Shown here: in pieces, positions 648 through 12,940 of the stretch | How positions within the stretch are numbered: the first letter of the stretch is position 1 | Layout of the letters: each line of letters opens with the position of its first letter | Origin: Candidatus Thorarchaeota archaeon | GTDB taxonomy: Archaea; Asgardarchaeota; Thorarchaeia; Thorarchaeales; Thorarchaeaceae | Length of the DNA stretch: 13,082 nucleotides | Assembly (NCBI GenBank): GCA_029858305.1 | Contig: JAOUFI010000059.1 | Location: 1 to 13,082, forward strand | Direction: 5' to 3' | The notes under the pieces: generated by a model | Told to the model about the DNA's origin: nothing | The model's input: the letters and a program-made list of their open reading frames with translations, nothing else | The model's database searches: none | Position numbers and translations under genes: made by a program

Positions 648-1094
648 CTAGGACTCACCAATCTGTTTTGCTCGAACGAACCACTCTATGACTGCAAAAG
701 CCATCAGAACTATTACTGCAAAGTAGAAATCTACGGCACCATTGGTTATTGTAGAAACAACCCATGCTGCTAATACTGCGACAACAAACGCTGCGACCAG
801 ACGAATCACATAATATTGGAAACGGTCATTATTTGTTGATTGCTCAGATTCTACGATTTGCTCTAATTCATACTCCTCTGCAATATCCTCCGGTGTACCG
901 ACCCCATTAAGTACATCCTGAATTAGACTTACCTGACTTTCTGTTGGATTATTCCTTATTTTTTCTGTTAAAGCTTCATAGATATGAGATCTAAGATCAG
1001 CAATTAGATCTTCAGCGGCAAAGCTATCTGGAAGAAGCCGAGATGTCTTCTTGATATAATCTTCAATTATTCTCTCAGTTTCACTATCAATCAT
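648..1094 (-). CDS. HAAS/DUF1700-like signalling domain protein with two C-terminal TM helices (PadR partner)
   Basis: IEDYI...DLIADLRSHIYEAL...VLNGVGTPEDIAEEY matches the HAAS pattern (E/D-L-x-x-H-I...G-x-P-x-x-I-A), and the C-terminus has two hydrophobic segments. Start moved to ATG 1094 (MIDSE), which has GGAGG upstream and overlaps the padR stop. Confidence 0.75.
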   Translation of the reverse strand: MIDSETERIIEDYIKKTSRLLPDSFAAEDLIADLRSHIYEALTEKIRNNPTESQVSLIQDVLNGVGTPEDIAEEYELEQIVESEQSTNNDRFQYYVIRLVAAFVVAVLAAWVVSTITNGAVDFYFAVIVLMAFAVIEWFVRAKQIGES

Positions 1095-1452
1095 TTCCCA
1101 GAACCTCCAGCTTTTCAAATACATTACCTACAAGTACAGTGAGCTGTCTGTAGACACGGTCTCCTTCTCCAGTCAAGACGTAGACTTTTCTACTTGGTCC
1201 CGAGTCCGACTTCTCATCATATACATTGAGAAGTCTTTCCTTTCTGAGTCGATGAAGAATCGGGTATAGTGTTCCTTCTTTAACCTGTAGAAGTCCGTCT
1301 GTTCGTTGTTCCAACTCACGAGCAATACCATATCCATGAATTCCTGATTCATGACGTTTCACTATAGCAAGTACTGCGTATTGAAGAACACCTCTTCTAA
1401 ATTCTACCTTCCAAGTTTCCTCAAAACTGGGTCCCTTTTGCAATAGAACCAA
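1087..1452 (-). CDS. PadR-family winged-helix transcriptional regulator
   Basis: RRGVLQYAVLAIV, HGYGIARELE, EGTLYPILHRL and RKVYVLTGEG are canonical PadR motifs. The TTG start is uncertain (1452 or 1443). Confidence 0.92.
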   Translation of the reverse strand: MVLLQKGPSFEETWKVEFRRGVLQYAVLAIVKRHESGIHGYGIARELEQRTDGLLQVKEGTLYPILHRLRKERLLNVYDEKSDSGPSRKVYVLTGEGDRVYRQLTVLVGNVFEKLEVLGND

Positions 1453-1506
1453 TCCTCTCAGGTGTTCTGAAACAGGTTTACGCAGGTGTCCTTAAGGTTG
1501 TCTATC

Positions 1507-2877
1507 TTAGACAAGGTCTGCATCATGTCGTCTACCTTGAATCAGGGACCTGAACTCTCTCCAGATAGTAGATGAATATTGTCTTGGCTCCCTGATAAGC
1601 AGATAGAAGAATGATGCTACAAAACGTAGGATTCCACTCAGGATGAGCATCAAGAATACTGCGAGGTATTCACTACTGAAAACAACCAACAGCAGCTGAC
1701 CCAAGAGACCTGCCAATAATGAGCCCAAGAGATAAACAAGCCCTGTGAATGTGTTGAATACAGCAATATGTGAACCTCTCTCTGTAGCTGGGGCAATATC
1801 ATAGATATAGGCAGTAATTGCATTAAATGCTGAAGCTGTACAAAATCCTGCTAGAATATTCGCAGCATACACAATCCAGACATTCCACGCAAAAGCATAC
1901 ATTATGGGGACTAGGAACAAGAATCCTCTTCCCAATAGAATCAATGGCTTTCTACCAACTCGGTCGCTTAGTCGCCCGAAAGGTATGGTGAAAATTACTG
2001 TTGAGGTTGTCATGAGAGCAGAGGCTATTGCAATTTCAAGGATTGAATTTCCCAGCCACTCTCTCTGAACAACAATAAAATATGGCCATGCCATTGACAT
2101 AGCGAAGGAGAAGAACACTGCAACAAAACTGAATCTTCTGAAATCACCAGGGCGTGATAGAAGTTTAAGCATTGGGGGAAATCTTTTTGGCCCATCATGT
2201 TTCAGAGGTTTTTCCTTGATTGATAGAGAGAGTAGTGAGGATAATATTCCTATAACCGCAGTAAGGAAGAATGGGATATAGTATGTTTCTCTCCAAGACT
2301 CTACTGATGGAAAGATGACAAGTCCAAAATCGCCAAAGGATGATCTCAATAAAGGTAGAATACCAGGAATCCCGGCCAAAATGCCAGAGATCATCGTTGC
2401 CACAAGCGAAGCAACATTAGTAATCATTCCTAATTTTCCAAGTTGGTCTCCTCTATTCTTCTCTCCCATGAGACCTCCTATTAATGATAACCAAGTAGGA
2501 ATCTGTATACTGAATAGAATAGACTGGATTGCATACATAAGTATCATATCGATTGGAGTTGCAGCCCATAGGAACAGGTAAACAAAAGTGAGCCCCATCA
2601 TCGTCCCAAAAGCAACAAATGCCTTTGCATGACCTGCTCTGTCTGATGCTGCACCCCAGGCGGGCTGAAGAACCGTTGGAGCAACATTTCCTACACTTCT
2701 GAATGCGCCAAGCTGAGTAAAGTTTAATGTTCCATAGAGGTTTGTCTGCATATCCACAAGATATGTTTGAAGGAAAGGAGCATGAAGACCCAAGGCAAAT
2801 TGAGTCAAAGCGCCAACAACGAATGCCTTCGCTGGTAGTTTTGGTTCTTCAATGGTGACAAAGGTCTCTTCAGTCAA
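1507..2877 (-). CDS. MFS transporter
   Basis: About 12 hydrophobic segments, with MFS motif A in both halves (WGAASDRAGH; FGRLSDRVGRKP). TTG start. Confidence 0.9.
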   Translation of the reverse strand: MTEETFVTIEEPKLPAKAFVVGALTQFALGLHAPFLQTYLVDMQTNLYGTLNFTQLGAFRSVGNVAPTVLQPAWGAASDRAGHAKAFVAFGTMMGLTFVYLFLWAATPIDMILMYAIQSILFSIQIPTWLSLIGGLMGEKNRGDQLGKLGMITNVASLVATMISGILAGIPGILPLLRSSFGDFGLVIFPSVESWRETYYIPFFLTAVIGILSSLLSLSIKEKPLKHDGPKRFPPMLKLLSRPGDFRRFSFVAVFFSFAMSMAWPYFIVVQREWLGNSILEIAIASALMTTSTVIFTIPFGRLSDRVGRKPLILLGRGFLFLVPIMYAFAWNVWIVYAANILAGFCTASAFNAITAYIYDIAPATERGSHIAVFNTFTGLVYLLGSLLAGLLGQLLLVVFSSEYLAVFLMLILSGILRFVASFFYLLIREPRQYSSTIWREFRSLIQGRRHDADLV

Positions 2878-3017: not shown

Positions 3018-4127
3018 ATGCTCGATGAATCGATATATCGATCGAGAATTATTCAAATTCAGAAGCAATTGAATGATTCGGATACGGACTTCATGCTTTT
3101 GACTCCTGAGGCTAATTTTCAATATCTTACAGGATATCCCCATCAAATGAGAGAACGACTTGTTGCCCTTCTCCTTAGAAAGGGAGCCGAACCGGAGCTC
3201 ATTGTTCCCGCATTCGAGGAATCTAATCATTCTTCTCAAACGTGGATAAAGGAAATCATCCCATGGGAGGAGGATGAAAGTCCATATGGCATAATTGCTG
3301 AATTGGTTGGAAAACGCGATGATGGTCCCACAGCTCTTCTAGATGAGAGTCTCCCCCTTGGCATCTATTGGTTATTAGAGAAAGCGTTTGGCAAGTTCAA
3401 GAAGGTGCTTTCAATTACCCCTACTATGAAATCTCTCCGAATTATAAAATCAGAGCATGAAGTTGCTTTATTGAGGAAAGCAGGACACATCATTGACGAT
3501 GCGGTGATGAAAGCTTTCAGAGCATCGCAGATTGGGATGACTGAACTACAGGTCCGACAGATAGTACAAGAAGAGGTCATTCGTCAAGGTGCGACTCCTT
3601 CATTTGCTGCAATTCAATTTGGTAAGAATAGTGCCTTTCCCCACGCTGATTCAAGCAATAGGGAGCTTAGAAAGGGTGATGTTATCTTAATGGACTGTGG
3701 ATGTTCACTGGATGGCTATAACACTGATATGACCCGGGTTGGTGTTCTGGGTGAGCCATCAGAGGATATTGAGTTAGTATATTCTATTGTAAGAAAGGCT
3801 CAAGAAACTGCAATAGAGAAAATCTCACGTGGCGTTGTTTGCGGGAATGCAGATGGAATTGCTCGACGTGTTATTGAGGAGGCTGGTTATGGAGACTACT
3901 TTACTCATCGCTTGGGCCATGGAATCGGTCTTGAGGTGCATGAACCACCTTATCTTGTCCGCGGAAATGCAGAAGAACTAGGTGTTGGAATGTGTCATAG
4001 TATTGAACCTGGCGTCTATTTAGAAGGGCAGTTTGGAATTCGGATTGAAGATCTAGTCTACATTCGTGAGGATGGCCCTGAGGTCATAACCTATTCCCCA
4101 AAGGACCTGATACTATTGAATCCGTAG
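3018..4127 (+). CDS. pepQ: M24B family Xaa-Pro dipeptidase/aminopeptidase P (prolidase-like)
   Basis: Creatinase-like N-domain (NFQYLTGY, ERLVALLL) and metal-ligand motifs MDCG, YNTDMTR, HRLGHGIGLEVHE, SIEPG and GIRIED. Start placed at ATG 3018 (MLDES), preceded by AGGTTGTGA. The ORF-track extension to 2877 would fill the divergent promoter region. Confidence 0.9.
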   Translation: MLDESIYRSRIIQIQKQLNDSDTDFMLLTPEANFQYLTGYPHQMRERLVALLLRKGAEPELIVPAFEESNHSSQTWIKEIIPWEEDESPYGIIAELVGKRDDGPTALLDESLPLGIYWLLEKAFGKFKKVLSITPTMKSLRIIKSEHEVALLRKAGHIIDDAVMKAFRASQIGMTELQVRQIVQEEVIRQGATPSFAAIQFGKNSAFPHADSSNRELRKGDVILMDCGCSLDGYNTDMTRVGVLGEPSEDIELVYSIVRKAQETAIEKISRGVVCGNADGIARRVIEEAGYGDYFTHRLGHGIGLEVHEPPYLVRGNAEELGVGMCHSIEPGVYLEGQFGIRIEDLVYIREDGPEVITYSPKDLILLNP

Positions 4128-4133
4128 AGATCA

Positions 4134-4745
4134 CTAAGTATCTTTACCATTTTCTGTTGTCGGATTTTCATCAGATTTCTCTGATTTACTAGTATCCTGT
4201 TCTTTCTTTTCATCCTCTGACCGTTTCTTCATAGCCTCTGCAGATTGTCGGATAAGTTCGGTCATGATGATAGAATAGATTGCCGGAAGTGTTGCGTCTG
4301 TTTCAGTCCTCTCTTTATACTCCTGTTCTGCAAGATTCCTTGCTGCTTGCAGAACTTCCTTGCTGATTTCTCCATGCCCTACTCCGGGACAATCCTTACT
4401 ACTAAGGTAGTATTTTTCTCCATTAAACTCAAGCGGATATGTTCTGCAAGAAATTGGTCTTGAATACCTAATTTCGCAACCATTTGCTTTCTCGTTGTAG
4501 AAGATGCAACAAGTACTCTCTGGCTTTTCTTCTAGAGGTTTTCGAGCCATTTCTAAAACGAGTCCGTCTTCCTCGCTTGTTGGCATCTTCATTGACACAC
4601 CTGGTATGATATTCATAAGATAGCCTTGAGCAGTCCATCTACCCAGGTCTCCAAGTGTAACAGTCACTTGAGGTCTGATATGGCAGGCTTTCGTTGTACA
4701 CTTTTGTTCTAGACATTTGAAGTTGTACTTTGATTTCTCAGACAT
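4134..4745 (-). CDS. YkgJ-like (CxxCxxCC family) Cys-cluster protein, putative Zn/Fe-S binding, with acidic low-complexity tail
   Basis: FKC-x4-C-x4-C, CCIFY, CEIRYSRPISCRTYP and DCPGVG. The likely start is ATG 4745 (MSEK), preceded by GGTGA-N5. Confidence 0.8.
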   Translation of the reverse strand: MSEKSKYNFKCLEQKCTTKACHIRPQVTVTLGDLGRWTAQGYLMNIIPGVSMKMPTSEEDGLVLEMARKPLEEKPESTCCIFYNEKANGCEIRYSRPISCRTYPLEFNGEKYYLSSKDCPGVGHGEISKEVLQAARNLAEQEYKERTETDATLPAIYSIIMTELIRQSAEAMKKRSEDEKKEQDTSKSEKSDENPTTENGKDT

Positions 4746-4919
4746 ATACTTCACCGGAGCGTAGTGATTGAGGCGTTCTGTTTATGGACAGACTTTAACG
4801 TTTTCGAAACAGCTAAAACCTCCCTTTTTACTTACACAAGTCGGCAGGTTTTTGTATAGCATTAAAACGTTTGACCCTCGCCTCAAACATTATCCCTGTT
4901 TTGACTCGGAGCATTCAAA

Positions 4920-8665: not shown

Positions 8666-9550
8666 CTAGAATCTCATTGGTTTTGGCTCTTCGCCTGAAT
8701 AATCATAAAAACCTCTTCCAGACTTCCGACCAAGCCAACCAGCTCTGACCATCTTCCGTAGTAAAGCTGGCGCTCTATATTTGCTGTCCTTGAACTCATC
8801 TACAAAGTAATCGCTTATGTAAAGCGCTGTATCAAGACCAACAAAGTCAAGTAATGTTAGTGGGCCCATAGGCCAGTTTAGACCCAATTTAATAGCTAGG
8901 TCCATGTCTTCTACAGTAGCCACACCTTCTTGAATAGCAAAAACCGCTTCAATGAGAGCTGGTACTAGTAATCTATTGACGGCAAAGCCTGGTGCCTCAT
9001 TGACTATTACCGTCTTCTTCCCAACTTTGTGTGAAACATCCTCGATAGCTTTTACTGTTGCATCGGCTGTAGCTTGACCCCTGATTATCTCGACAAGACC
9101 CATGACAGGCACAGGATTGAAAAAGTGCATACCAATGAATTTGTCAGGTCTCTTCGTGACCGCGGCCATCTGCGTGATACTTATACTGGACGTATTGGAG
9201 GCAAGAATCGTATGTTTCGGGGCTGCTCCATCGACTTCCTTCCAAGTATCAAGTTTGAGTTTGACAATCTCGGGAATTGCTTCTATTACTAAGTCTGCAT
9301 CTTTTACAGCATCCTTCAGGTCAAGAACCCCTTTGATTCTTCCCAAGATTGCGTCTGCCTCATCCTGAGTCATCTTGCCCTTCGATACACCTCGGTCAAG
9401 ATTCTTCTTGATGGTCGTTATTCCATTATCCACGAATTTCTGCTCAATATCGCGCATTTTGACCTCATAACCAGCTTGAGCGCAGACATGGGCTATCCCA
9501 TTGCCCATCTGTCCTGCACCCAACACTGCAATCTTCTTGATCTCCATCAT
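8666..9550 (-). CDS. hbd: 3-hydroxybutyryl-CoA / 3-hydroxyacyl-CoA dehydrogenase
   Basis: Rossmann GAGQMGNGIA, VIEAIPE, LASNTSS, GMHFFNPVPVM, PGFAVNR, MGPLTLLDFVGLD and LGRKSGRGFY. GAGGCGG RBS upstream. Confidence 0.95.
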   Translation of the reverse strand: MMEIKKIAVLGAGQMGNGIAHVCAQAGYEVKMRDIEQKFVDNGITTIKKNLDRGVSKGKMTQDEADAILGRIKGVLDLKDAVKDADLVIEAIPEIVKLKLDTWKEVDGAAPKHTILASNTSSISITQMAAVTKRPDKFIGMHFFNPVPVMGLVEIIRGQATADATVKAIEDVSHKVGKKTVIVNEAPGFAVNRLLVPALIEAVFAIQEGVATVEDMDLAIKLGLNWPMGPLTLLDFVGLDTALYISDYFVDEFKDSKYRAPALLRKMVRAGWLGRKSGRGFYDYSGEEPKPMRF

Positions 9551-9674: not shown

Positions 9675-10304
9675 CTATAGTCTCTCATATCGAAATGTAC
9701 AGCGTTTGCCTCCTGATGCTATGGTTTCATATCGAGTGAATTTTATCCATTTTACCAAATAGTTGGCTAGCATGTCATCATAATCACACAGAATCGGTCC
9801 TAGCTCAGGTCGACCCGCTTCTCGAAGGATATCGAAGTAGAGACATTTCTGAATATCAAATCCAAAGCATTGGTCATCTTGTTGAATTTCGAGGACTTTG
9901 AAGAACTCATTATCATAATTTGCTCTGTTTCCCTTTCTTATCCACTCTATAAAAGCTCCCCAAGGATCGACACTCTCCTCGAGATGCCGAACCTCACTTT
10001 CGAAGAATGTCTGTAGCATTTCTTTATAGATACTAATGACAGACACTTTAAGTTGGGAGTATGATGCCTTTATCTCCCTTAAAGTATCATCAAGAGCCAT
10101 TACAAAGAGTGAATTAATACCATGCCTTTTTGCTAGGTGGATCGGCATCATGTGTTTGTAGTTATTATAATGTATCCTGAATTGCCTATCGTACAAACTA
10201 TGGAGTGCATCCCCTTTCTGCTCACCAAATAGCCTATGAAGCTCCCTACCTGTTAAAAGTGAAAAGTAATCTATGAGCTGTTGTATTTGATTGTCCTCAG
10301 TCAT
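9675..10304 (-). CDS. L-2-amino-thiazoline-4-carboxylic acid hydrolase-like family protein (function uncertain; possibly ligand-binding)
   Basis: The C-terminal FDIQKCLYFDIL...PELGPILCDYD...FTRYETIASGGKRCTFRY is the family signature with three Cys. Start moved to ATG 10304 (MTEDN), with GAGG upstream. Confidence 0.75.
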   Translation of the reverse strand: MTEDNQIQQLIDYFSLLTGRELHRLFGEQKGDALHSLYDRQFRIHYNNYKHMMPIHLAKRHGINSLFVMALDDTLREIKASYSQLKVSVISIYKEMLQTFFESEVRHLEESVDPWGAFIEWIRKGNRANYDNEFFKVLEIQQDDQCFGFDIQKCLYFDILREAGRPELGPILCDYDDMLANYLVKWIKFTRYETIASGGKRCTFRYERL

Positions 10305-10340
10305 GGTTCCTCGCCCTCTTGTTGGCACTTTTAGGAGTTT

Positions 10341-10425
10341 GGGATGGTCACAAATTGTGACTCCCTTGTGTGACCACAAGAAGTGGCTTTGCTATATATA
10401 CTGTTTCTAACTGTTACTTCTTGTG
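10341..10425. promoter_or_regulatory. Divergent promoter region: TATA box (TATATATA 10393-10400) framed by a 10-bp inverted repeat, plus nested palindromes (putative operators)
   Basis: CACAAGAAGT (10375-10384) and ACTTCTTGTG (10416-10425) are exact reverse complements. GTCACAA-A-TTGTGAC lies at 10347-10361 and CTTGTG-TGAC-CACAAG at 10365-10380. The TATA box ends 32 nt before ATG 10433. Confidence 0.55.
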
Positions 10426-10432
10426 AAAAATC

Positions 10433-10537
10433 ATGGCTCTAACAACTAACAACGAAACTTTTGCGAAGAATAACGCAATCCGAAGTGTTCCCCGCACTCA
10501 AGCTGTTGCTTATGCTTTCATTACACGTGTGAGGTAA
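10433..10537 (+). CDS. Micropeptide A (34 aa) MALTTNNETFAKNNAIRSVPRTQAVAYAFITRVR
   Basis: Hand translation. Paralogous to micropeptide C (same length, MALxTN start, R-x-x-A-h-A-Y-A-aromatic motif, ends AGG-TAA). Positioned for near-leaderless translation from the upstream TATA box. Confidence 0.7.
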   Translation: MALTTNNETFAKNNAIRSVPRTQAVAYAFITRVR

Positions 10538-10543
10538 TCTCCC

Positions 10544-10672
10544 ATGACACATACTGAGAATCATATCTCTGTGTTCTATTCAGATCCCACTTCAATAGCC
10601 AAGTGGTCACCGAGTGACCATGGATATGGTCATTCTTGCTCAGAAGTAGTAAAACCTGTGACCATCATATGA
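10544..10672 (+). CDS. Small ORF B (42 aa) MTHTENHISVFYSDPTSIAKWSPSDHGYGHSCSEVVKPVTII
   Basis: ATG lies 6 nt after the stop of A, with GAGGT (10531-10535) 8 nt upstream. The ORF fills the gap to C but overlaps strong palindromes, so coding status is uncertain. Confidence 0.4.
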   Translation: MTHTENHISVFYSDPTSIAKWSPSDHGYGHSCSEVVKPVTII

Positions 10673-10688
10673 TAGGTTGTGAATCATC

Positions 10689-10793
10689 ATGGCTTTAGAT
10701 ACTAACTCACATAATCGGAACAGGAAATACGAATCTCCACGTAATATTCAACGTGCAAAAGCATTAGCCTATGCTTATGCGTACAAGAGGTAA
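10689..10793 (+). CDS. Micropeptide C (34 aa) MALDTNSHNRNRKYESPRNIQRAKALAYAYAYKR
   Basis: Hand translation. Preceded by AGGTTGTGAA, the same element found upstream of the peptidase ATG 3018. Paralogous to A and D. Confidence 0.72.
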   Translation: MALDTNSHNRNRKYESPRNIQRAKALAYAYAYKR

Positions 10794-10798
10794 TTCAG

Positions 10799-10879
10799 AT
10801 GAATACTGACCAGAGGACAAAGAGACCTACAACCATCACCTCCACCCGTGCTATTGCAGAGGCTTACTTCAGAAGGTAG
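10799..10879 (+). CDS. Micropeptide D (26 aa) MNTDQRTKRPTTITSTRAIAEAYFRR
   Basis: ATG lies 5 nt after the stop of C, with GAGGT upstream. Shares A-h-A-x-A-aromatic...R-stop with A and C and ends AGG-TAG. Confidence 0.65.
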   Translation: MNTDQRTKRPTTITSTRAIAEAYFRR

Positions 10880-10885
10880 TTGATT

Positions 10886-11011
10886 ATGATTTTCGACAAT
10901 CTCTATCCCTTTCGAGAGGATTACTGCGTCGTACAAAATGTTTATAATGTAAACGGTTTATATTACAAATGGTTTGTACCACAAACTTATATGTGTTTGA
11001 CTGAATCATAA
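10886..11011 (+). CDS. Small ORF E (41 aa) MIFDNLYPFREDYCVVQNVYNVNGLYYKWFVPQTYMCLTES
   Basis: ATG lies 6 nt after the stop of D, with AAGGT upstream. Aromatic-rich with two Cys, and overlaps an AT-rich hairpin. Confidence 0.4.
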   Translation: MIFDNLYPFREDYCVVQNVYNVNGLYYKWFVPQTYMCLTES

Positions 11012-11026
11012 CAAAGGTGAATGATA

Positions 11027-11137
11027 ATGACTCTACGACTGACTTCAGACAAGCCCTGCTTGACATGGGAGAATAGGTCGATAAAGGTCCAGTCGTTTGG
11101 GGTATTATGTTATGGGAGTCAGACAATATCACAATGA
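11027..11137 (+). CDS. Small ORF F (36 aa) MTLRLTSDKPCLTWENRSIKVQSFGVLCYGSQTISQ
   Basis: Strong archaeal-type RBS AGGTGA (11015-11020) 6 nt upstream of ATG 11027 (an in-frame ATG also lies at 11021). Confidence 0.4.
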   Translation: MTLRLTSDKPCLTWENRSIKVQSFGVLCYGSQTISQ

Positions 11138-11185
11138 GCCATGATGTTTCAACTTACGCTTACACCGGATAAATCTCCTATCTCC

Positions 11186-11221
11186 GCAGCGGTCCCGGTA
11201 GTGTGATCACGGGGCCGCTGC
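11186..11221 (+). other. GC-rich 12-bp stem-loop (RNA structural element, processing/stability or termination signal)
   Basis: GCAGCGGTCCCG-GTAGTGTGATCA-CGGGGCCGCTGC forms 11 Watson-Crick pairs plus one G-U pair on the + strand. 26 of 36 nt are G/C in otherwise AT-rich surroundings. Confidence 0.65.
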
Positions 11222-11244
11222 TCCAAAATGGAGTGCTGATAGAA

Positions 11245-11361
11245 ATGAATCCTATTACAAACAACCTATGGCTTTATTCCATATCTCAGTCAAATAGACC
11301 TGAGAACTCTATCCCTCATTGTTCACTTCAGTGTCTTTTTCAGAGGAGTGATAAAAGATGA
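11245..11361 (+). CDS. Small ORF I (38 aa) MNPITNNLWLYSISQSNRPENSIPHCSLQCLFQRSDKR overlapping the MFS start
   Basis: GGAGTG (11230-11235) lies 9 nt upstream of the ATG, and its TGA overlaps the MFS ATG in an ATGA arrangement. Confidence 0.3.
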   Translation: MNPITNNLWLYSISQSNRPENSIPHCSLQCLFQRSDKR

Positions 11362-12878
11362 GTCGAATGAAATCTTTTCTTGGCTTACCAGAGGCAACTG
11401 AGAAGGTTCTTAGATTAGCCAAGATTATGGCTGTACTAGGTCCACTTGCCAACTTTACCTTTGTACTATCTACAACATTCTATGTAATCTTTGTAGCTGA
11501 GGCTTTGGGTGGCGGCCCTGGCATGTATTTGCAGGGCATGGGCCTTGTTGGCACGCTTGTTGTCATTCAAATGGTTGTTCAGACGATTCTTGATTACCCA
11601 ACTGGAGCAATCGGAGACTGGATCGGACAAAGATGGGTAGTATCTTCAGCAGCACTATGTTTCGCTCTGTCTTTCTACATGCTCTCCTTTGTCACGACGA
11701 CCACCCCATTCTGGTTTCTGGTAATCATCTATGTATTAGCAGGACTTGCTCAGAGTCAGCAGAGCGGTGCATGGGGCGCTTGGTTTGATAATAACTATCG
11801 AGTTGCAATGCCCGGGGATTCGGATCGAAAGCAGTACGGTGTTTTCTGGGGGCGTATGGGCATGATGATGCAAGTTGTTGCAACAGCTTCCCTCATTCCT
11901 GGGAGTGTGCTTGCTGTTGTCCTATCACGACCTTGGGTCTTTCAGTTTCAAGCTGTCTTAGCAGTCGTACTGGCCTTGATCTCCTTCAGATTAGTCCGGG
12001 ACTTTCCAGAGGTAGAGGCACAGCGTGAAAAACGCCCTGAAATGGGACAGTATATTTCAATATTGAAGGGAGGAGTAGGTTTTCTCTTCAAATATCCCTT
12101 TGTACGGTACATAACCATAGGCGGAATGATTGCCACTAGTAGTATCATGGTATGGGGTAATCTGATTCTCTTTCCGATGTATTATTTGTACCTCATAACT
12201 GACGTTGCAGTGGCGGGATTTAGAACCCTCCTTTTCATGCCTGGGATTTTTGCTCAGGAGCGATCCGGTATCTGGTCACGCAGATTCGAACCTAAGAAAT
12301 GGATTCCACGGTTTAGATTGATCCAGACATGTGGCTTTGTCTTTTTCTGGGTATTTGCAACTGTCATGTTTCTATTCCCTCCTGTTGCTAGTGAATCTGC
12401 GAATATCATCTCAATCTACTGGCCATTCACCGGAGTTGAGCTATTAACTCTCCCACTAGAGAATCTTCTACCAATTGGACTTATCTTTACAACATTTGTT
12501 GCCACGTCATTCTTCGGGGGCTTTGCCGACATACTAACACAGAGAGTGTTATTGGATGTTATTCCAAACCGAATTCGTAACAGCATGTACTCACTACTTC
12601 CGACAATTGCAACCGTATTTGCTATTCCTCAAATTGCTCTCTTTGGCTGGTTGATTACTCTTATTGGATTTCCTCTAACTCTGGCAAGTTGTGGGGTAGT
12701 ATCTCTCATTGGGGTAGTCCTAATCGTTCACGGTTTTAGACATGAGGTTCCCAAAGCTGAAGAAGCCACCTGGTCATCCCCAGCTCCAGAAGTGCAACCT
12801 AACGACGTAATCGCTGAGTCTGAAGTTGTTGCTGAACTCCCAGTATTGACCATCATTGACGAACCTACTGATGAGTGA
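11358..12878 (+). CDS. MFS transporter with acidic C-terminal tail
   Basis: About 12 TM segments, DYPTGAIGDWIGQR (motif A variant), QQSGAWGAWFDN and IPNRIRNSMYSL. RBS GAGGAGTGA at 11343-11351. Confidence 0.9.
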   Translation: MSRMKSFLGLPEATEKVLRLAKIMAVLGPLANFTFVLSTTFYVIFVAEALGGGPGMYLQGMGLVGTLVVIQMVVQTILDYPTGAIGDWIGQRWVVSSAALCFALSFYMLSFVTTTTPFWFLVIIYVLAGLAQSQQSGAWGAWFDNNYRVAMPGDSDRKQYGVFWGRMGMMMQVVATASLIPGSVLAVVLSRPWVFQFQAVLAVVLALISFRLVRDFPEVEAQREKRPEMGQYISILKGGVGFLFKYPFVRYITIGGMIATSSIMVWGNLILFPMYYLYLITDVAVAGFRTLLFMPGIFAQERSGIWSRRFEPKKWIPRFRLIQTCGFVFFWVFATVMFLFPPVASESANIISIYWPFTGVELLTLPLENLLPIGLIFTTFVATSFFGGFADILTQRVLLDVIPNRIRNSMYSLLPTIATVFAIPQIALFGWLITLIGFPLTLASCGVVSLIGVVLIVHGFRHEVPKAEEATWSSPAPEVQPNDVIAESEVVAELPVLTIIDEPTDE

Positions 12879-12897: not shown

Positions 12898-12940
12898 GAA
12901 GTCATCATTCTGATGGCTTCTTCTTTATTCCTTCTATTTC
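12898..12940 (+). terminator. Hairpin plus pyrimidine/T-rich tract; probable terminator of the MFS gene
   Basis: GAAGTCATCA-TTC-TGATGGCTTC (10 bp, one G-U pair) is followed by TTCTTTATTCCTTCTATTTC, about 20 nt after the stop. Confidence 0.65.

What the first reader, a model, noticed from the sequence alone, without database searches (positions are those of the whole stretch)
10433..11361. Hidden array of closely packed small ORFs leading into an MFS transporter: candidate undescribed micropeptide operon
Seen in sequence: the ~930 bp the ORF track leaves essentially empty is tiled on one strand by ATG-initiated ORFs of 34, 42, 34, 26, 41 and 36 aa, separated by only 6, 16, 5, 6 and 15 nt. Each ORF after the first has an AGGT-containing RBS-like element. 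After a GC hairpin, a 38-aa ORF overlaps the MFS start. A TATA box precedes the first ORF and a terminator follows the MFS gene. Inference: this is a polycistronic peptide cassette. Options include exported signalling or antimicrobial peptides handled by the MFS, intracellular regulatory peptides, or a multi-uORF leader controlling the transporter. No RiPP-modifying enzyme is visible in the window, and I do not recognise the peptides as a known family.
Basis: partly seen in the sequence, partly recalled or inferred. Interest (0 to 1): 0.85.

Follow-up and report, generated by a model that had tools for sequence, protein, structure and literature searches.

The report
Conserved micropeptide operon in Thorarchaeota
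The "empty" stretch before this transporter gene holds real, evolutionarily conserved genes for tiny basic peptides of a so far unnamed family that is found throughout one class of Asgard archaea, always behind the same promoter; what the peptides do is still unknown.

Summary
On the + strand, 10433-11137 holds six ATG ORFs of 34, 42, 34, 26, 41 and 36 aa with gaps of 6, 16, 5, 6 and 15 nt. A 38-aa ORF (11245-11361) overlaps the MFS start. No simulated sequence (0 of 5000) and no random genome window (0 of 5000) gave such a chain.

ORFs 1, 3 and 4 are paralogues of one peptide family: about 32 aa, net charge +5, and a conserved C-terminal helix. The family has 14 copies at 6 loci in this genome. 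It occurs in 77 of 87 genomes of the class (Thorarchaeota) and in 0 of 16 genomes outside the genus in a first sample of relatives, 15 of them from other classes of the phylum. Synonymous codon variation and in-frame dN/dS of 0.30-0.46 show selection on the protein. ORF 6 is a second coding micropeptide (dN/dS 0.25).

ORF 2, ORF 5 and the hairpin region are conserved at nucleotide level without a coding signature. They look like a repeat array of protein-binding type, a palindrome, and an RNA hairpin with compensatory changes.

A shared promoter module precedes the first ORF of arrays in every genus sampled. Some arrays are free-standing units, so the peptides are probably products in their own right, here co-transcribed with the transporter. 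Function is unknown. No Pfam, NCBIfam, Rfam or PDB match was found.

The parts
10347..10361 (.). Palindromic operator-like site (two 6-base half-sites, 3-base spacer), upstream of the TATA box. A further half-site lies at 10370-10376.
   Evidence: Read. The same arrangement precedes the first ORF of arrays at C50, C119 and C205 and at 19 of 20 loci from other genera.
10393..10401 (+). TATA box of the shared promoter module. It ends 31 nt before the ATG of o1, so the mRNA is expected to have almost no leader (inference).
10421..10427 (+). Conserved 7-base motif 5 nt before the ATG of o1, repeated at 10677-10683 before o3.
   Evidence: Direct repeat D1. Conserved before first ORFs, and before the o3 orthologues.
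10433..10537 (+). o1 (P1), 34 aa, family member of the 'first in array' type.
   Evidence: HMM E = 8.8e-16. Orthologue in 22 of 22 leaders. In-frame dN/dS 0.46, against 0.90 and 1.26 in the shifted frames.
10544..10672 (+). o2 (P2), a 42-codon open frame with an SD site and a start codon. Its 3' half (10604-10664) is an invariant array of three direct 6-base repeats about 11 nt apart, a conserved 7-mer and an inverted copy of the repeat. Probably a protein-binding element on DNA or RNA. Translation is not excluded.
   Evidence: Open in 22 of 22 leaders. No codon periodicity (0.336/0.328/0.373) and dN/dS 0.79. 0 of 13 predicted pairs covary. The motif clusters only here in the genome. The same element is present in 6 of 7 MFS_3-type leaders.
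10689..10793 (+). o3 (P3), 34 aa, family member.
   Evidence: HMM E = 1.4e-14. dN/dS 0.39, against 0.84 and 1.24.
10799..10879 (+). o4 (P4), 26 aa, a short family member of the type ending in F-R-R.
   Evidence: Match at E = 7.8e-7. Orthologue in 21 of 22 leaders. dN/dS 0.30, against 1.94 and 0.91.
10886..11011 (+). o5, 41 codons, overlapping a 27-nt-arm palindrome (10928-10954 / 10956-10982). Probably not a gene.
   Evidence: I1. Similar peptides are read on both strands. The open frame differs between genomes. No periodicity, dN/dS 0.78.
11027..11137 (+). o6 (P6), 36 aa (38 aa from the ATG at 11021). A second conserved micropeptide with Cys residues, unrelated to the main family.
   Evidence: Found in 14 of 22 leaders. 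dN/dS 0.25, against 1.10 and 1.42, with third-position change 0.54. A relative sits in the C119 leader.
11162..11221 (+). An invariant 24-nt box (11162-11185) followed by a 13-bp GC hairpin (11186-11221) with a conserved 8-base loop motif (11201-11208). A 21-codon ORF (11141-11206) crosses it but shows no coding signature.
   Evidence: the hairpin is present in 17 of 17 sequences, and by my count of the per-pair table 4 of its 13 pairs carry a both-sides change. P7 periodicity 0.207/0.261/0.276. Several orthologues lack a start codon.
11245..11361 (+). o7, a 38-aa upstream ORF whose stop overlaps the MFS start. The position is conserved, the sequence is not.
   Evidence: 17 of 22 leaders have an ATG ORF of at least 15 aa ending between -11 and +12 of the MFS start. 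The window's peptide is unlike the common type. That type shows no periodicity (0.269/0.316/0.310, 6 sequences).
11358..12878 (+). MFS transporter, 506 aa, with an SD site 8-12 nt upstream.
   Evidence: Pfam MFS_1 at E = 2.4e-18. No NCBIfam family. A match at E <= 1e-60 in 28 of 28 genomes of the genus, with best matches at 73-90% identity listed for 23 other genomes.
12898..12940 (+). Terminator-like imperfect hairpin followed by a T-rich run after the MFS stop.
   Evidence: Read by eye. No program was run on it.

Best explanation
SHOWN. The stretch 10347-11361 is the front part of an operon that is conserved in Thorarchaeota. A promoter module (palindromic operator-like site, TATA box, conserved motif just before the ATG) is followed by a chain of closely spaced small ORFs and then an MFS transporter gene.

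Three of the ORFs (o1, o3, o4) belong to one multi-copy family of peptides of about 32 aa. The peptides are basic, hydrophilic and helix-prone, and they evolve under selection on the amino-acid sequence. o6 is a second coding micropeptide.

Between the ORFs lie conserved non-coding elements: a repeat array inside o2, a palindrome inside o5, and a hairpin with compensatory changes. The last small ORF ends at the transporter's start codon.

INFERRED.
- The first ORF is translated from an almost leaderless mRNA.
- Each later ORF uses the SD site that is built into the last codons (Arg-Arg-stop) of the ORF before it, so ribosomes pass from one ORF to the next and finally to the transporter.
- The family peptides are gene products that act in trans inside the cell, as small basic helical effectors or binders. 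This follows from the fact that the same promoter-plus-peptide cassette also occurs as a free-standing unit. Examples are the type-D peptide, which has its own hairpin and T-tract and is followed by a new TATA box, and the array that is convergent with a zinc-ribbon membrane protein gene in 20 genomes.
- In this window the peptides are co-expressed with the transporter, under one transcription factor that recognises the shared half-sites in the promoter and possibly the related repeats inside o2.

What the peptides bind is not known.
For: Family and its spread.
- 14 matches at 6 loci in the own genome.
- 24 of 24 other genomes of the genus.
- 77 of 87 genomes of the class, 15 of 17 genera, always in open frames of 29-67 aa without stops among the rows listed.
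- 20 confirmed loci among one genome per species of 185,579 species: 17 titled Thorarchaeota, 1 Promethearchaeota, 2 'uncultured archaeon'.

Coding signal.
- An invariant Ala uses all four codons (29/23/7/7).
- A conserved Ser uses both codon boxes, Arg uses five codons, and all three stop codons occur (66 distinct copies).
- In-frame dN/dS is 0.46, 0.39, 0.30 and 0.25 for o1, o3, o4 and o6, against 0.84-1.94 in the shifted frames.

Synteny.
- The same ORF series lies upstream of the orthologous MFS in 22 leaders.
- It also precedes the same MFS type in two other genera.

Promoter module..

Free-standing units.
- One search shows a hairpin with 9 compensatory pairs overall, a T-rich tract, and then a TATA-like box 27-30 nt before the next gene.
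- The array is convergent with a conserved 200-aa membrane protein in 20 genomes of 4 genera (coordinates compared; protein conservation).

Coupling. SD 5-mers sit before o2, o4, o5 and o6. A terminal small ORF ends at the MFS start in 17 of 22 leaders.

Peptide properties. Median charge +5, GRAVY -0.67, no hydrophobic segment. Model helix at residues 8-33, mean pLDDT 63.
Against: - There is no expression or peptide data. No RNA run was listed, which is not evidence either way.
- Action in trans is inferred only from gene arrangement, and no partner has been identified.
- In the MFS_3-type loci the last family peptide stops 5 nt before the transporter start in 4 of 7 loci. That is what a cis-acting leader would look like.
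- The strongest conservation lies in the 13 residues before the stop codon, as in known arrest peptides.
- The terminal Arg-Arg may be conserved for the SD site and not for the peptide.
- The transcription factor is hypothetical. The elements in o2 and the hairpin could equally act on RNA.
- The structure model is of low confidence.
Confidence: 0.45

Rival explanations
1. Cis-acting multi-uORF leader. The family peptides are nascent-chain sensors (arrest or attenuation peptides). Their translation, stalled or not by some small molecule or translation inhibitor, decides whether ribosomes and RNA polymerase reach the downstream gene. The same tunnel-active C-terminal motif is reused in front of different genes of one regulon.
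For: - Conservation is concentrated in the last 13 residues up to the stop codon.
- The array lies at the 5' end of the transporter operons. The peptide stop is 5 nt before the MFS_3-type start in 4 of 7 loci, and a terminal uORF ends at the window-type MFS start in 17 of 22 leaders.
- A conserved hairpin and other elements lie between the peptides and the MFS.
- In type-D loci the peptide stop sits in a hairpin that is followed by a terminator-like hairpin and T-tract. This is the layout of a classical attenuator.
- Genes near arrays include a Mef/EntS-like drug:H+ antiporter and an AAC(6')/spermidine-acetyltransferase-like GNAT, and a tRNA-editing domain protein. From recall, genes of these classes are under leader-peptide control in bacteria.
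Against: - Arrays convergent with another gene in 20 genomes (one search compared) have no downstream gene to control.
- In type-D loci the next gene has its own TATA-like box.
- The N-terminus (Met-Ala-Leu) and an Ala-x3-Ala spacing are also conserved. A tunnel sensor does not need these.
- No pair of alternative hairpins was found.
- The hairpin at 11186-11221 is not followed by a T-tract.
- Ribosome-mediated attenuation has not been described in archaea, as far as I recall.
Confidence: 0.25
2. Exported peptides. The family members are leaderless secreted signalling or antimicrobial peptides, often an A plus B pair. The MFS transporters are their exporters or immunity proteins, and the shared promoter is the target of the regulator of this system.
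For: - Tandem small genes of two recurring types, A then B.
- The peptides are cationic and rich in aromatic residues at the C-terminus.
- Two unrelated MFS families, and a membrane protein, are the most frequent neighbours.
- Several dispersed operons share one regulated promoter. From recall, this resembles the plantaricin regulon and the aureocin A70 and PSM-alpha operons.
Against: - The peptides are hydrophilic, with no amphipathic or hydrophobic stretch of membrane-active type (GRAVY -0.67; median of the most hydrophobic 15-aa window -0.06).
- There is no signal or double-glycine leader and no ABC exporter or peptidase in the window.
- The family is conserved across a whole class under purifying selection, not patchy and fast-evolving.
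- Other neighbours (hemerythrin, aminotransferase, 110-aa cytosolic protein) do not fit.
Confidence: 0.15
3. Not genes. The ORFs are by-products of a repeated regulatory DNA or RNA element, and conservation is at nucleotide level only.
For: - o2, o5 and the hairpin region do behave this way.
- The promoter module is more conserved than the ORFs.
- The terminal codons double as SD sites.
Against: - For o1, o3, o4 and o6, third codon positions change 1.3-1.9 times as often as first and second positions, and dN/dS is 0.25-0.46 in frame only.
- Conserved residues use many synonymous codons.
- The listed matches, the best 150 in each, are all stop-free and 29-67 codons long.
Confidence: 0.04

Closest known systems
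Bacterial leader (attenuator or arrest) peptides in front of efflux and resistance genes, such as the mef, erm, cat and cmlA leaders, and the TnaC/SecM type of arrest peptides (recalled, not tested by any search)
   Same: Short ORFs lie in the 5' region of a transporter operon. Conservation is strongest next to the stop codon. The ORFs are tightly coupled to the downstream start. A conserved hairpin is nearby. One partner transporter scores against Mef and EntS models below their cut-offs.
   Different: Here there are several paralogous ORFs in series. The same peptide family sits at 6 loci per genome in front of unrelated genes, and also in free-standing units. No alternative terminator/antiterminator pairing was found. 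The host is an archaeon.
Operons of several leaderless small peptides: aureocin A70 (aurABCD), PSM-alpha, garvicin KS, and two-peptide class IIb bacteriocins (recalled)
   Same: Tandem paralogous genes of about 20-35 codons, each with its own SD site. No signal peptide. Cationic. A membrane transporter lies next to them. A small-x3-small spacing is present in a helix.
   Different: These peptides are hydrophilic. The transporter is an MFS and not an ABC type. The family is conserved class-wide under purifying selection.
Conserved-peptide upstream ORFs and multi-uORF leaders of eukaryotes (GCN4, CPuORFs; recalled)
   Same: Several upstream ORFs lie in series before a main ORF. Some are conserved at the peptide level and others only in position, as with o7.
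   Different: SD-based coupling instead of scanning. A polycistronic prokaryote-type operon. The family is also free-standing.
Small arginine-rich RNA-binding peptides such as the N-terminal motif of phage lambda N (recalled; a resemblance in composition only)
   Same: About 20-35 aa, basic, helical, with an aromatic residue. A conserved RNA hairpin with an invariant loop motif lies in the same leader.
   Different: No sequence relation was tested or claimed. The hairpin occurs only in the window-type MFS leaders, whereas the peptides occur at all loci.

Membership tests
Any described protein or RNA family | A significant match to a curated model | tested here: not met
   Pfam: none of the window's small ORFs matched at E <= 0.01; the one listed match, o5 against WG_beta_rep at E = 0.037, is far below that family's cut-off. 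PDB sequences: 0 at E <= 1. Rfam: 0 at gathering score for the window, and only two chance-level rows at E about 0.8-0.9 for 10300-11450. Six clusters looked up in the protein collection carry no name. NCBIfam, PHROGs and PADLOC were not run on the peptides.
Ribosome-dependent attenuator or arrest leader peptides | A short translated ORF in the 5' leader of the regulated gene | tested here: inconclusive
   Met at the two MFS loci. Not met at type-D loci, where a terminator-like hairpin and a new TATA-like box follow. Not met at arrays convergent with another gene (one search compared).
Ribosome-dependent attenuator or arrest leader peptides | Mutually exclusive RNA structures (terminator/antiterminator or RBS-sequestering) that respond to ribosome position | tested here: inconclusive
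   Single conserved hairpins were found. No alternative pairing was searched for systematically. No T-tract follows the hairpin at 11186-11221.
Ribosome-dependent attenuator or arrest leader peptides | Stalling of the ribosome on the peptide | not testable with these tools
   This needs toeprinting or ribosome profiling.
Leaderless multi-peptide bacteriocins and PSM-like peptides | Amphipathic or hydrophobic membrane-active helices | tested here: not met
   GRAVY median -0.67. The most hydrophobic 15-aa window has a median of -0.06.
Leaderless multi-peptide bacteriocins and PSM-like peptides | Tandem paralogous small genes with a dedicated exporter or immunity gene | tested here: inconclusive
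   Tandem genes are present. MFS genes follow at two of six loci in this genome. No ABC exporter is present.
RiPP precursor peptides | A modifying enzyme encoded next to the precursor genes | tested here: not met
   Neighbours in the window are an ATC_hydrolase-domain protein, 3-hydroxyacyl-CoA dehydrogenase, an S33 hydrolase, a P-type ATPase and others. Neighbours at the other loci are hemerythrin, GNAT, aminotransferase and MFS. None is a known RiPP maturase. The 108-aa, 200-aa and 218-aa proteins next to other arrays and the 206-aa ORF at 4134-4754 matched no family and remain unknown.
Type I toxin small proteins | A hydrophobic transmembrane peptide with an antisense RNA | tested here: not met
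   No hydrophobic segment. An antisense RNA was not testable.
Major facilitator superfamily (the downstream gene) | Match to MFS_1 above the cut-off | tested here: met
   Pfam MFS_1 at 66.6 bits, against a cut-off of 33.4. No NCBIfam subfamily.

The most novel reading that the evidence does not exclude
Thorarchaeota carry a regulon in which one ribosome-sensed peptide motif (the conserved C-terminal 13 residues before the stop codon), placed behind one shared promoter, gates efflux, acetyltransferase and other stress genes. This would be an attenuation or arrest-peptide system in Asgard archaea. A variant of the same reading is that the peptides are the first peptide signals described in archaea, exported by the linked MFS pumps.
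Probability: 0.2. Interest if true: 0.85.

Novelty: new variant of a known kind. Interest (0 to 1): 0.62.

Why it matters
Asgard archaea are the closest known relatives of eukaryotes. Almost nothing is known about their small proteins or about how they regulate genes after transcription starts.

This finding provides four things:
- a class-wide family of translated micropeptides that has no name in the sources consulted and appears in only part of the gene calls;
- a sharply defined promoter and operator module that marks a regulon;
- two further conserved cis elements (a repeat array and a hairpin);
- a clear case of chained translational coupling.

Together these give concrete, testable handles (peptides, operator, hairpin) for work in enrichment cultures or in heterologous archaeal hosts. 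The finding also shows that intergenic 'gaps' in MAG annotation can hide conserved genes.

Tried and rejected
Programs and searches that gave nothing.
- tRNA and Rfam scans of the window found nothing relevant.
- Recoding of stop codons was considered and rejected. The six ORFs end in TAA, TGA, TAA, TAG, TAA and TGA (read), and the family uses all three stops.
- The search for related loci with the full alignment failed because it had no conserved stretch. A narrower alignment worked.
The step was dropped and the representative library was used instead. There, 4 of the 49 hits are unrelated repeat proteins (P0001, P0008, P0045 and P0047 were read).
- The look-up of sequencing runs listed no RNA holder.
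- Complex prediction on o1 with o3 gave no verdict (score 0.02). This is no evidence either way.

Ideas tested and not borne out.
- RNA structure for the o2 element: 0 of 13 pairs covary in 16 and in 24 sequences. A structured RNA is not supported and not excluded.
- I suspected a tRNA gene between the C50 array and the hemerythrin gene. ARAGORN and Rfam did not find one, so I make no claim.
- One tblastn with the upstream ATC_hydrolase gene used a mis-framed query. Its hits are not used.

Literature. Three searches and one look into a 2026 preprint on archaeal bacteriocins (passages only) found nothing on this family. Only search listings and abstract starts were seen for the other papers. 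Supplements were not opened.

Rows dropped. L067 and L069 were left out of the leader analyses because the contig ends cut off the upstream region. L006 was left out as a duplicate of L002. Several loci are the same place in one genome (for example L019 = L033, L012 = L031, L010 = L034, L008 = L027, L007 = L026), so the cluster sizes overcount.
Full report
OBSERVATION

The + strand between the divergent upstream gene and the MFS gene holds ATG ORFs at these positions:
- 10433-10537 (34 aa)
- 10544-10672 (42 aa)
- 10689-10793 (34 aa)
- 10799-10879 (26 aa)
- 10886-11011 (41 aa)
- 11027-11137 (36 aa)

The gaps are 6, 16, 5, 6 and 15 nt. A 38-aa ORF at 11245-11361 overlaps the MFS ATG at 11358. 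A GC hairpin has arms at 11186-11197 and 11210-11221. A TATA box lies at 10393-10401. A hairpin plus T-rich run follows the MFS stop (read by eye).

SD-like 5-mers precede o2, o4, o5 and o6, and a 4-mer precedes o3. o1 has none. In this genome 27% of 1385 long ORFs have such a 5-mer at -18..-4, against 7% at a control position.

A chain of six such ORFs was reached in 0 of 5000 Markov simulations (largest chain 4) and in 0 of 5000 random windows of this genome (largest chain 5).

THE ORFS ARE NOT ALL OF ONE KIND

o1, o3 and o4 are paralogues. They share the N-terminus and a C-terminal block. A tblastn search, a pattern scan and an HMM search of the whole 3.04-Mb assembly found the same peptide at five more loci:
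- C50, three in tandem with gaps of 7 and 6 nt
- C119, three plus relatives of o2 and o6, ending 8 nt before the ATG of another MFS gene (5 nt before an alternative GTG start)
- C205, two
- C32, one
- C155, two

Every pattern hit lies in a frame of 35-40 codons between stops (7 of 7 hits).

SPREAD OF THE FAMILY

A profile of 14 copies found 4-13 matches in each of 24 of 24 other genomes of the genus. It found none in the 16 other genomes of that sample: one from another family of the same order and 15 from other classes of the phylum.

A class-wide search found matches in 77 of 87 genomes and 15 of 17 genera. The listed matches are stop-free frames of 29-67 codons.

A pattern scan of one genome per species of 185,579 prokaryote species gave 32 stretches. 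Of these, 20 were confirmed: 17 in records titled Candidatus Thorarchaeota, 1 Promethearchaeota archaeon and 2 uncultured archaeon. The organism is therefore a member of the Thorarchaeota (Asgard archaea).

In 1.84 billion representative proteins the profile found 49 hits at E <= 0.001. The four I read among the long ones are unrelated repeat proteins. The rest are 29-103 aa, mostly 29-41. Six that were looked up carry no name.

CODING TEST

In 66 distinct copies:
- the invariant Ala uses GCT, GCA, GCG and GCC (29, 23, 7, 7);
- the conserved Ser uses both codon boxes;
- the penultimate Arg uses five codons;
- all three stop codons occur.

The window's MFS has a match at E <= 1e-60 in all 28 genomes of the genus. 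The best matches, at 73-90% identity, are listed for 23 other genomes. I analysed 22 leaders: the window plus 21 loci. Two loci that are cut by contig ends were dropped.

| Element | Pairwise change at codon positions 1/2/3 | In-frame dN/dS | dN/dS in shifted frames |
|---|---|---|---|
| o1 | 0.39/0.31/0.50 | 0.46 | 0.84-1.94 (range for these four) |
| o3 | 0.43/0.33/0.53 | 0.39 | as above |
| o4 | 0.30/0.32/0.56 | 0.30 | as above |
| o6 | 0.34/0.29/0.54 | 0.25 | as above |
| o2 | 0.336/0.328/0.373 | 0.79 | no contrast |
| o5 | 0.336/0.337/0.373 | 0.78 | no contrast |
| 21-codon ORF over the hairpin | 0.207/0.261/0.276 | 0.84 | no contrast |

The first four elements are coding. The last three show no periodicity.

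For o5, different frames are open in different genomes. It also overlaps a palindrome with 27-nt arms. o6 is found in 14 of 22 leaders, o4 in 21 of 22, and o2 in 22 of 22.

o7 is conserved in position only. In 17 of 22 leaders a small ORF ends between -11 and +12 of the MFS start, but the window's peptide is unlike the common type, and that type shows no periodicity.

NON-CODING ELEMENTS

Hairpin. The hairpin at 11186-11221 is present in 17 of 17 aligned leaders. It has a conserved loop motif and is preceded by an invariant 24-nt box. The run predicted 21 pairs in all, 8 of them with a both-sides change. By my count of the per-pair table, 4 of the hairpin's 13 pairs carry such a change. It is not followed by a T-tract.

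Repeat array in o2. The 3' half of o2 holds three direct 6-base repeats about 11 nt apart, a conserved 7-mer and an inverted copy of the repeat.
- These motifs are invariant in 24 sequences, and none of the 13 predicted pairs covaries.
- The 7-base form of the repeat occurs 324 times in the genome. Its only cluster of three or more sites is here.
- The same element sits in 6 of 7 leaders of the other (MFS_3-type) transporter.
- Invariant, phased repeats without covariation point to a protein-binding site on DNA or RNA. This is an inference.

PROMOTER MODULE

The 90 nt before the first ORF of the arrays at C62, C50, C119 and C205 are one conserved module: a palindrome of two 6-base half-sites with a 3- to 5-base spacer, a further half-site, a TATA box, and a conserved 7-mer 5-6 nt before the ATG. 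The same module precedes the first ORF at 19 of 20 loci fetched from other genera.

The TATA box ends 31 nt before the ATG. With the usual archaeal spacing, the transcript would then start about 8-10 nt before the ATG. This is inferred from recalled spacing rules and is not measured.

CONTEXTS

Among the loci at hand, the nearest same-strand downstream genes cluster as follows. Several loci are duplicates of one place, so these counts are upper bounds.

| Downstream gene | Loci |
|---|---|
| 110-aa protein of unknown family | 9 |
| The window's MFS type | 8 |
| MFS_1/MFS_3 transporter that scores against EntS, Mef and Tap models below their cut-offs | 7 |
| GNAT acetyltransferase about 850 nt away | 5 |
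| Hemerythrin-domain protein | 2 |

Two contexts show free-standing units.

1. Type-D loci. The peptide's stop codon lies in a hairpin. A second GC hairpin and a T-rich tract follow. Then a conserved TATA-like box lies 27-30 nt before the ATG of the 110-aa gene. This holds for 8 sequences, with 9 of 36 pairs showing compensatory change.

2. Convergent pair. The A-plus-B array of the C205 type is convergent with a 200-aa protein that has a zinc-ribbon-like Cys motif and hydrophobic C-terminal segments. That protein is conserved at 38-82% identity. Comparing the coordinates with those, this convergent pair occurs in 20 genomes of 4 genera.

PEPTIDE PROPERTIES

Median length is 32 aa, net charge +5 (range 3-8), GRAVY -0.67 and pI 10.3, with no hydrophobic segment. 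AlphaFold2 run on 25 aligned sequences gives one helix over residues 8-33, with mean pLDDT 63 and 74 for residues 21-30. Two Ala residues four positions apart are invariant or nearly so.

INTERPRETATION

What is shown: a conserved operon with a defined promoter module, four coding micro-ORFs, three non-coding conserved elements, and a small ORF that ends at the transporter start.

What is inferred:
- Leaderless translation of o1.
- SD-mediated coupling from ORF to ORF, because the last codons of each family member (Arg-Arg-stop) form the SD site of the next.
- Control by one factor that binds the shared half-sites.

The same cassette also stands alone. I therefore judge it most likely (0.45) that the peptides are products acting in trans, and that the transporter is co-expressed with them.

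The main rival (0.25) is a cis-acting chain of leader peptides. It fits the conservation next to the stop codon, the 5-nt coupling to the MFS_3-type gene and the attenuator-like layout of type-D loci. It does not explain the convergent and terminated units.

Exported peptides (0.15) fit the neighbouring transporters. They do not fit the hydrophilic sequence or the class-wide purifying selection.

A purely non-coding reading (0.04) is contradicted.

COMPARISON AND NOVELTY

No curated family matches. Three literature searches and one preprint look-up found no description of this family.

The genetic layout resembles bacterial leader-peptide systems and operons of several leaderless peptides. Both comparisons are recalled and not tested, and defining features of each are unmet or untestable (see the membership table).

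I rate the finding as a new variant of a known kind: a multi-micropeptide operon and leader. It differs by being an Asgard-archaeal, class-wide, multi-locus family tied to one promoter module.

LIMITS

- All evidence is comparative.
- No RNA run was listed.
- The complex prediction gave no verdict.
- Related genomes are not independent samples.
- The HMM-based selection of stop-free frames makes 'open in all' partly true by construction.

Noticed in passing
G000 C50 8565-8752, C119 34713-34900, C205 96914-97104: The promoter module and the first peptide gene are almost identical between three loci of this one genome (peptides differ by 0-1 residue between C50 and C119). Orthologues in other species differ more. 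This suggests gene conversion or recent copying between loci.
   Followed up: partly
L001 about 4030-4147, minus strand (G000 C50 about 9029-9146): By eye, a stretch between the peptide array and the hemerythrin gene looks like the 3' half of a tRNA with an encoded CCA. ARAGORN and Rfam did not call it.
   Followed up: yes
L004 4040-4076 and the aligned loci: The 110-aa protein of unknown family downstream of type-D peptides has a conserved TATA-like box 27-30 nt before its ATG. It is probably translated from a leaderless mRNA.
   Followed up: partly
L003 4349-4948, minus strand (G000 C205 97348-97947): A 200-aa protein with a Cys-x2-Cys motif and hydrophobic C-terminal segments has no Pfam or NCBIfam match. 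It is present in 72 of 87 genomes of the class, with up to 8 matches in one genome. Its nearest copy is convergent with a peptide array in 20 genomes.
   Followed up: partly
protein P0036: A 103-aa predicted protein from another assembly joins an N-terminal piece, similar by eye to my own reading of the start of the window's upstream ATC_hydrolase-domain gene, to a family peptide. It may be a local rearrangement or a gene-calling artefact.
   Followed up: no
orthologues of the window MFS in G008, G024, G012: Three otherwise full-length orthologues carry one in-frame stop each (TAG, TAG, TGA). These could be sequencing errors, pseudogenes or something else. They were not examined.
   Followed up: no
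window 648-2877, minus strand: A PadR-family regulator (1087-1452), a HAAS/DUF7087 membrane protein (648-1124) and a second, unrelated MFS_1 transporter (1507-2877) lie together. This looks like an ordinary PadR-controlled efflux unit.
   Followed up: no
window 4134-4754, minus strand: A 206-aa ORF with no Pfam match at E <= 0.01.
   Followed up: no
G000 C205 97204-97311; protein P0023: A third small ORF of 35 aa follows the A-plus-B pair at the C205-type locus. By eye, its C-terminal residues recur in P0023, where it is fused to a B-type peptide. It may be another conserved micropeptide.
   Followed up: no
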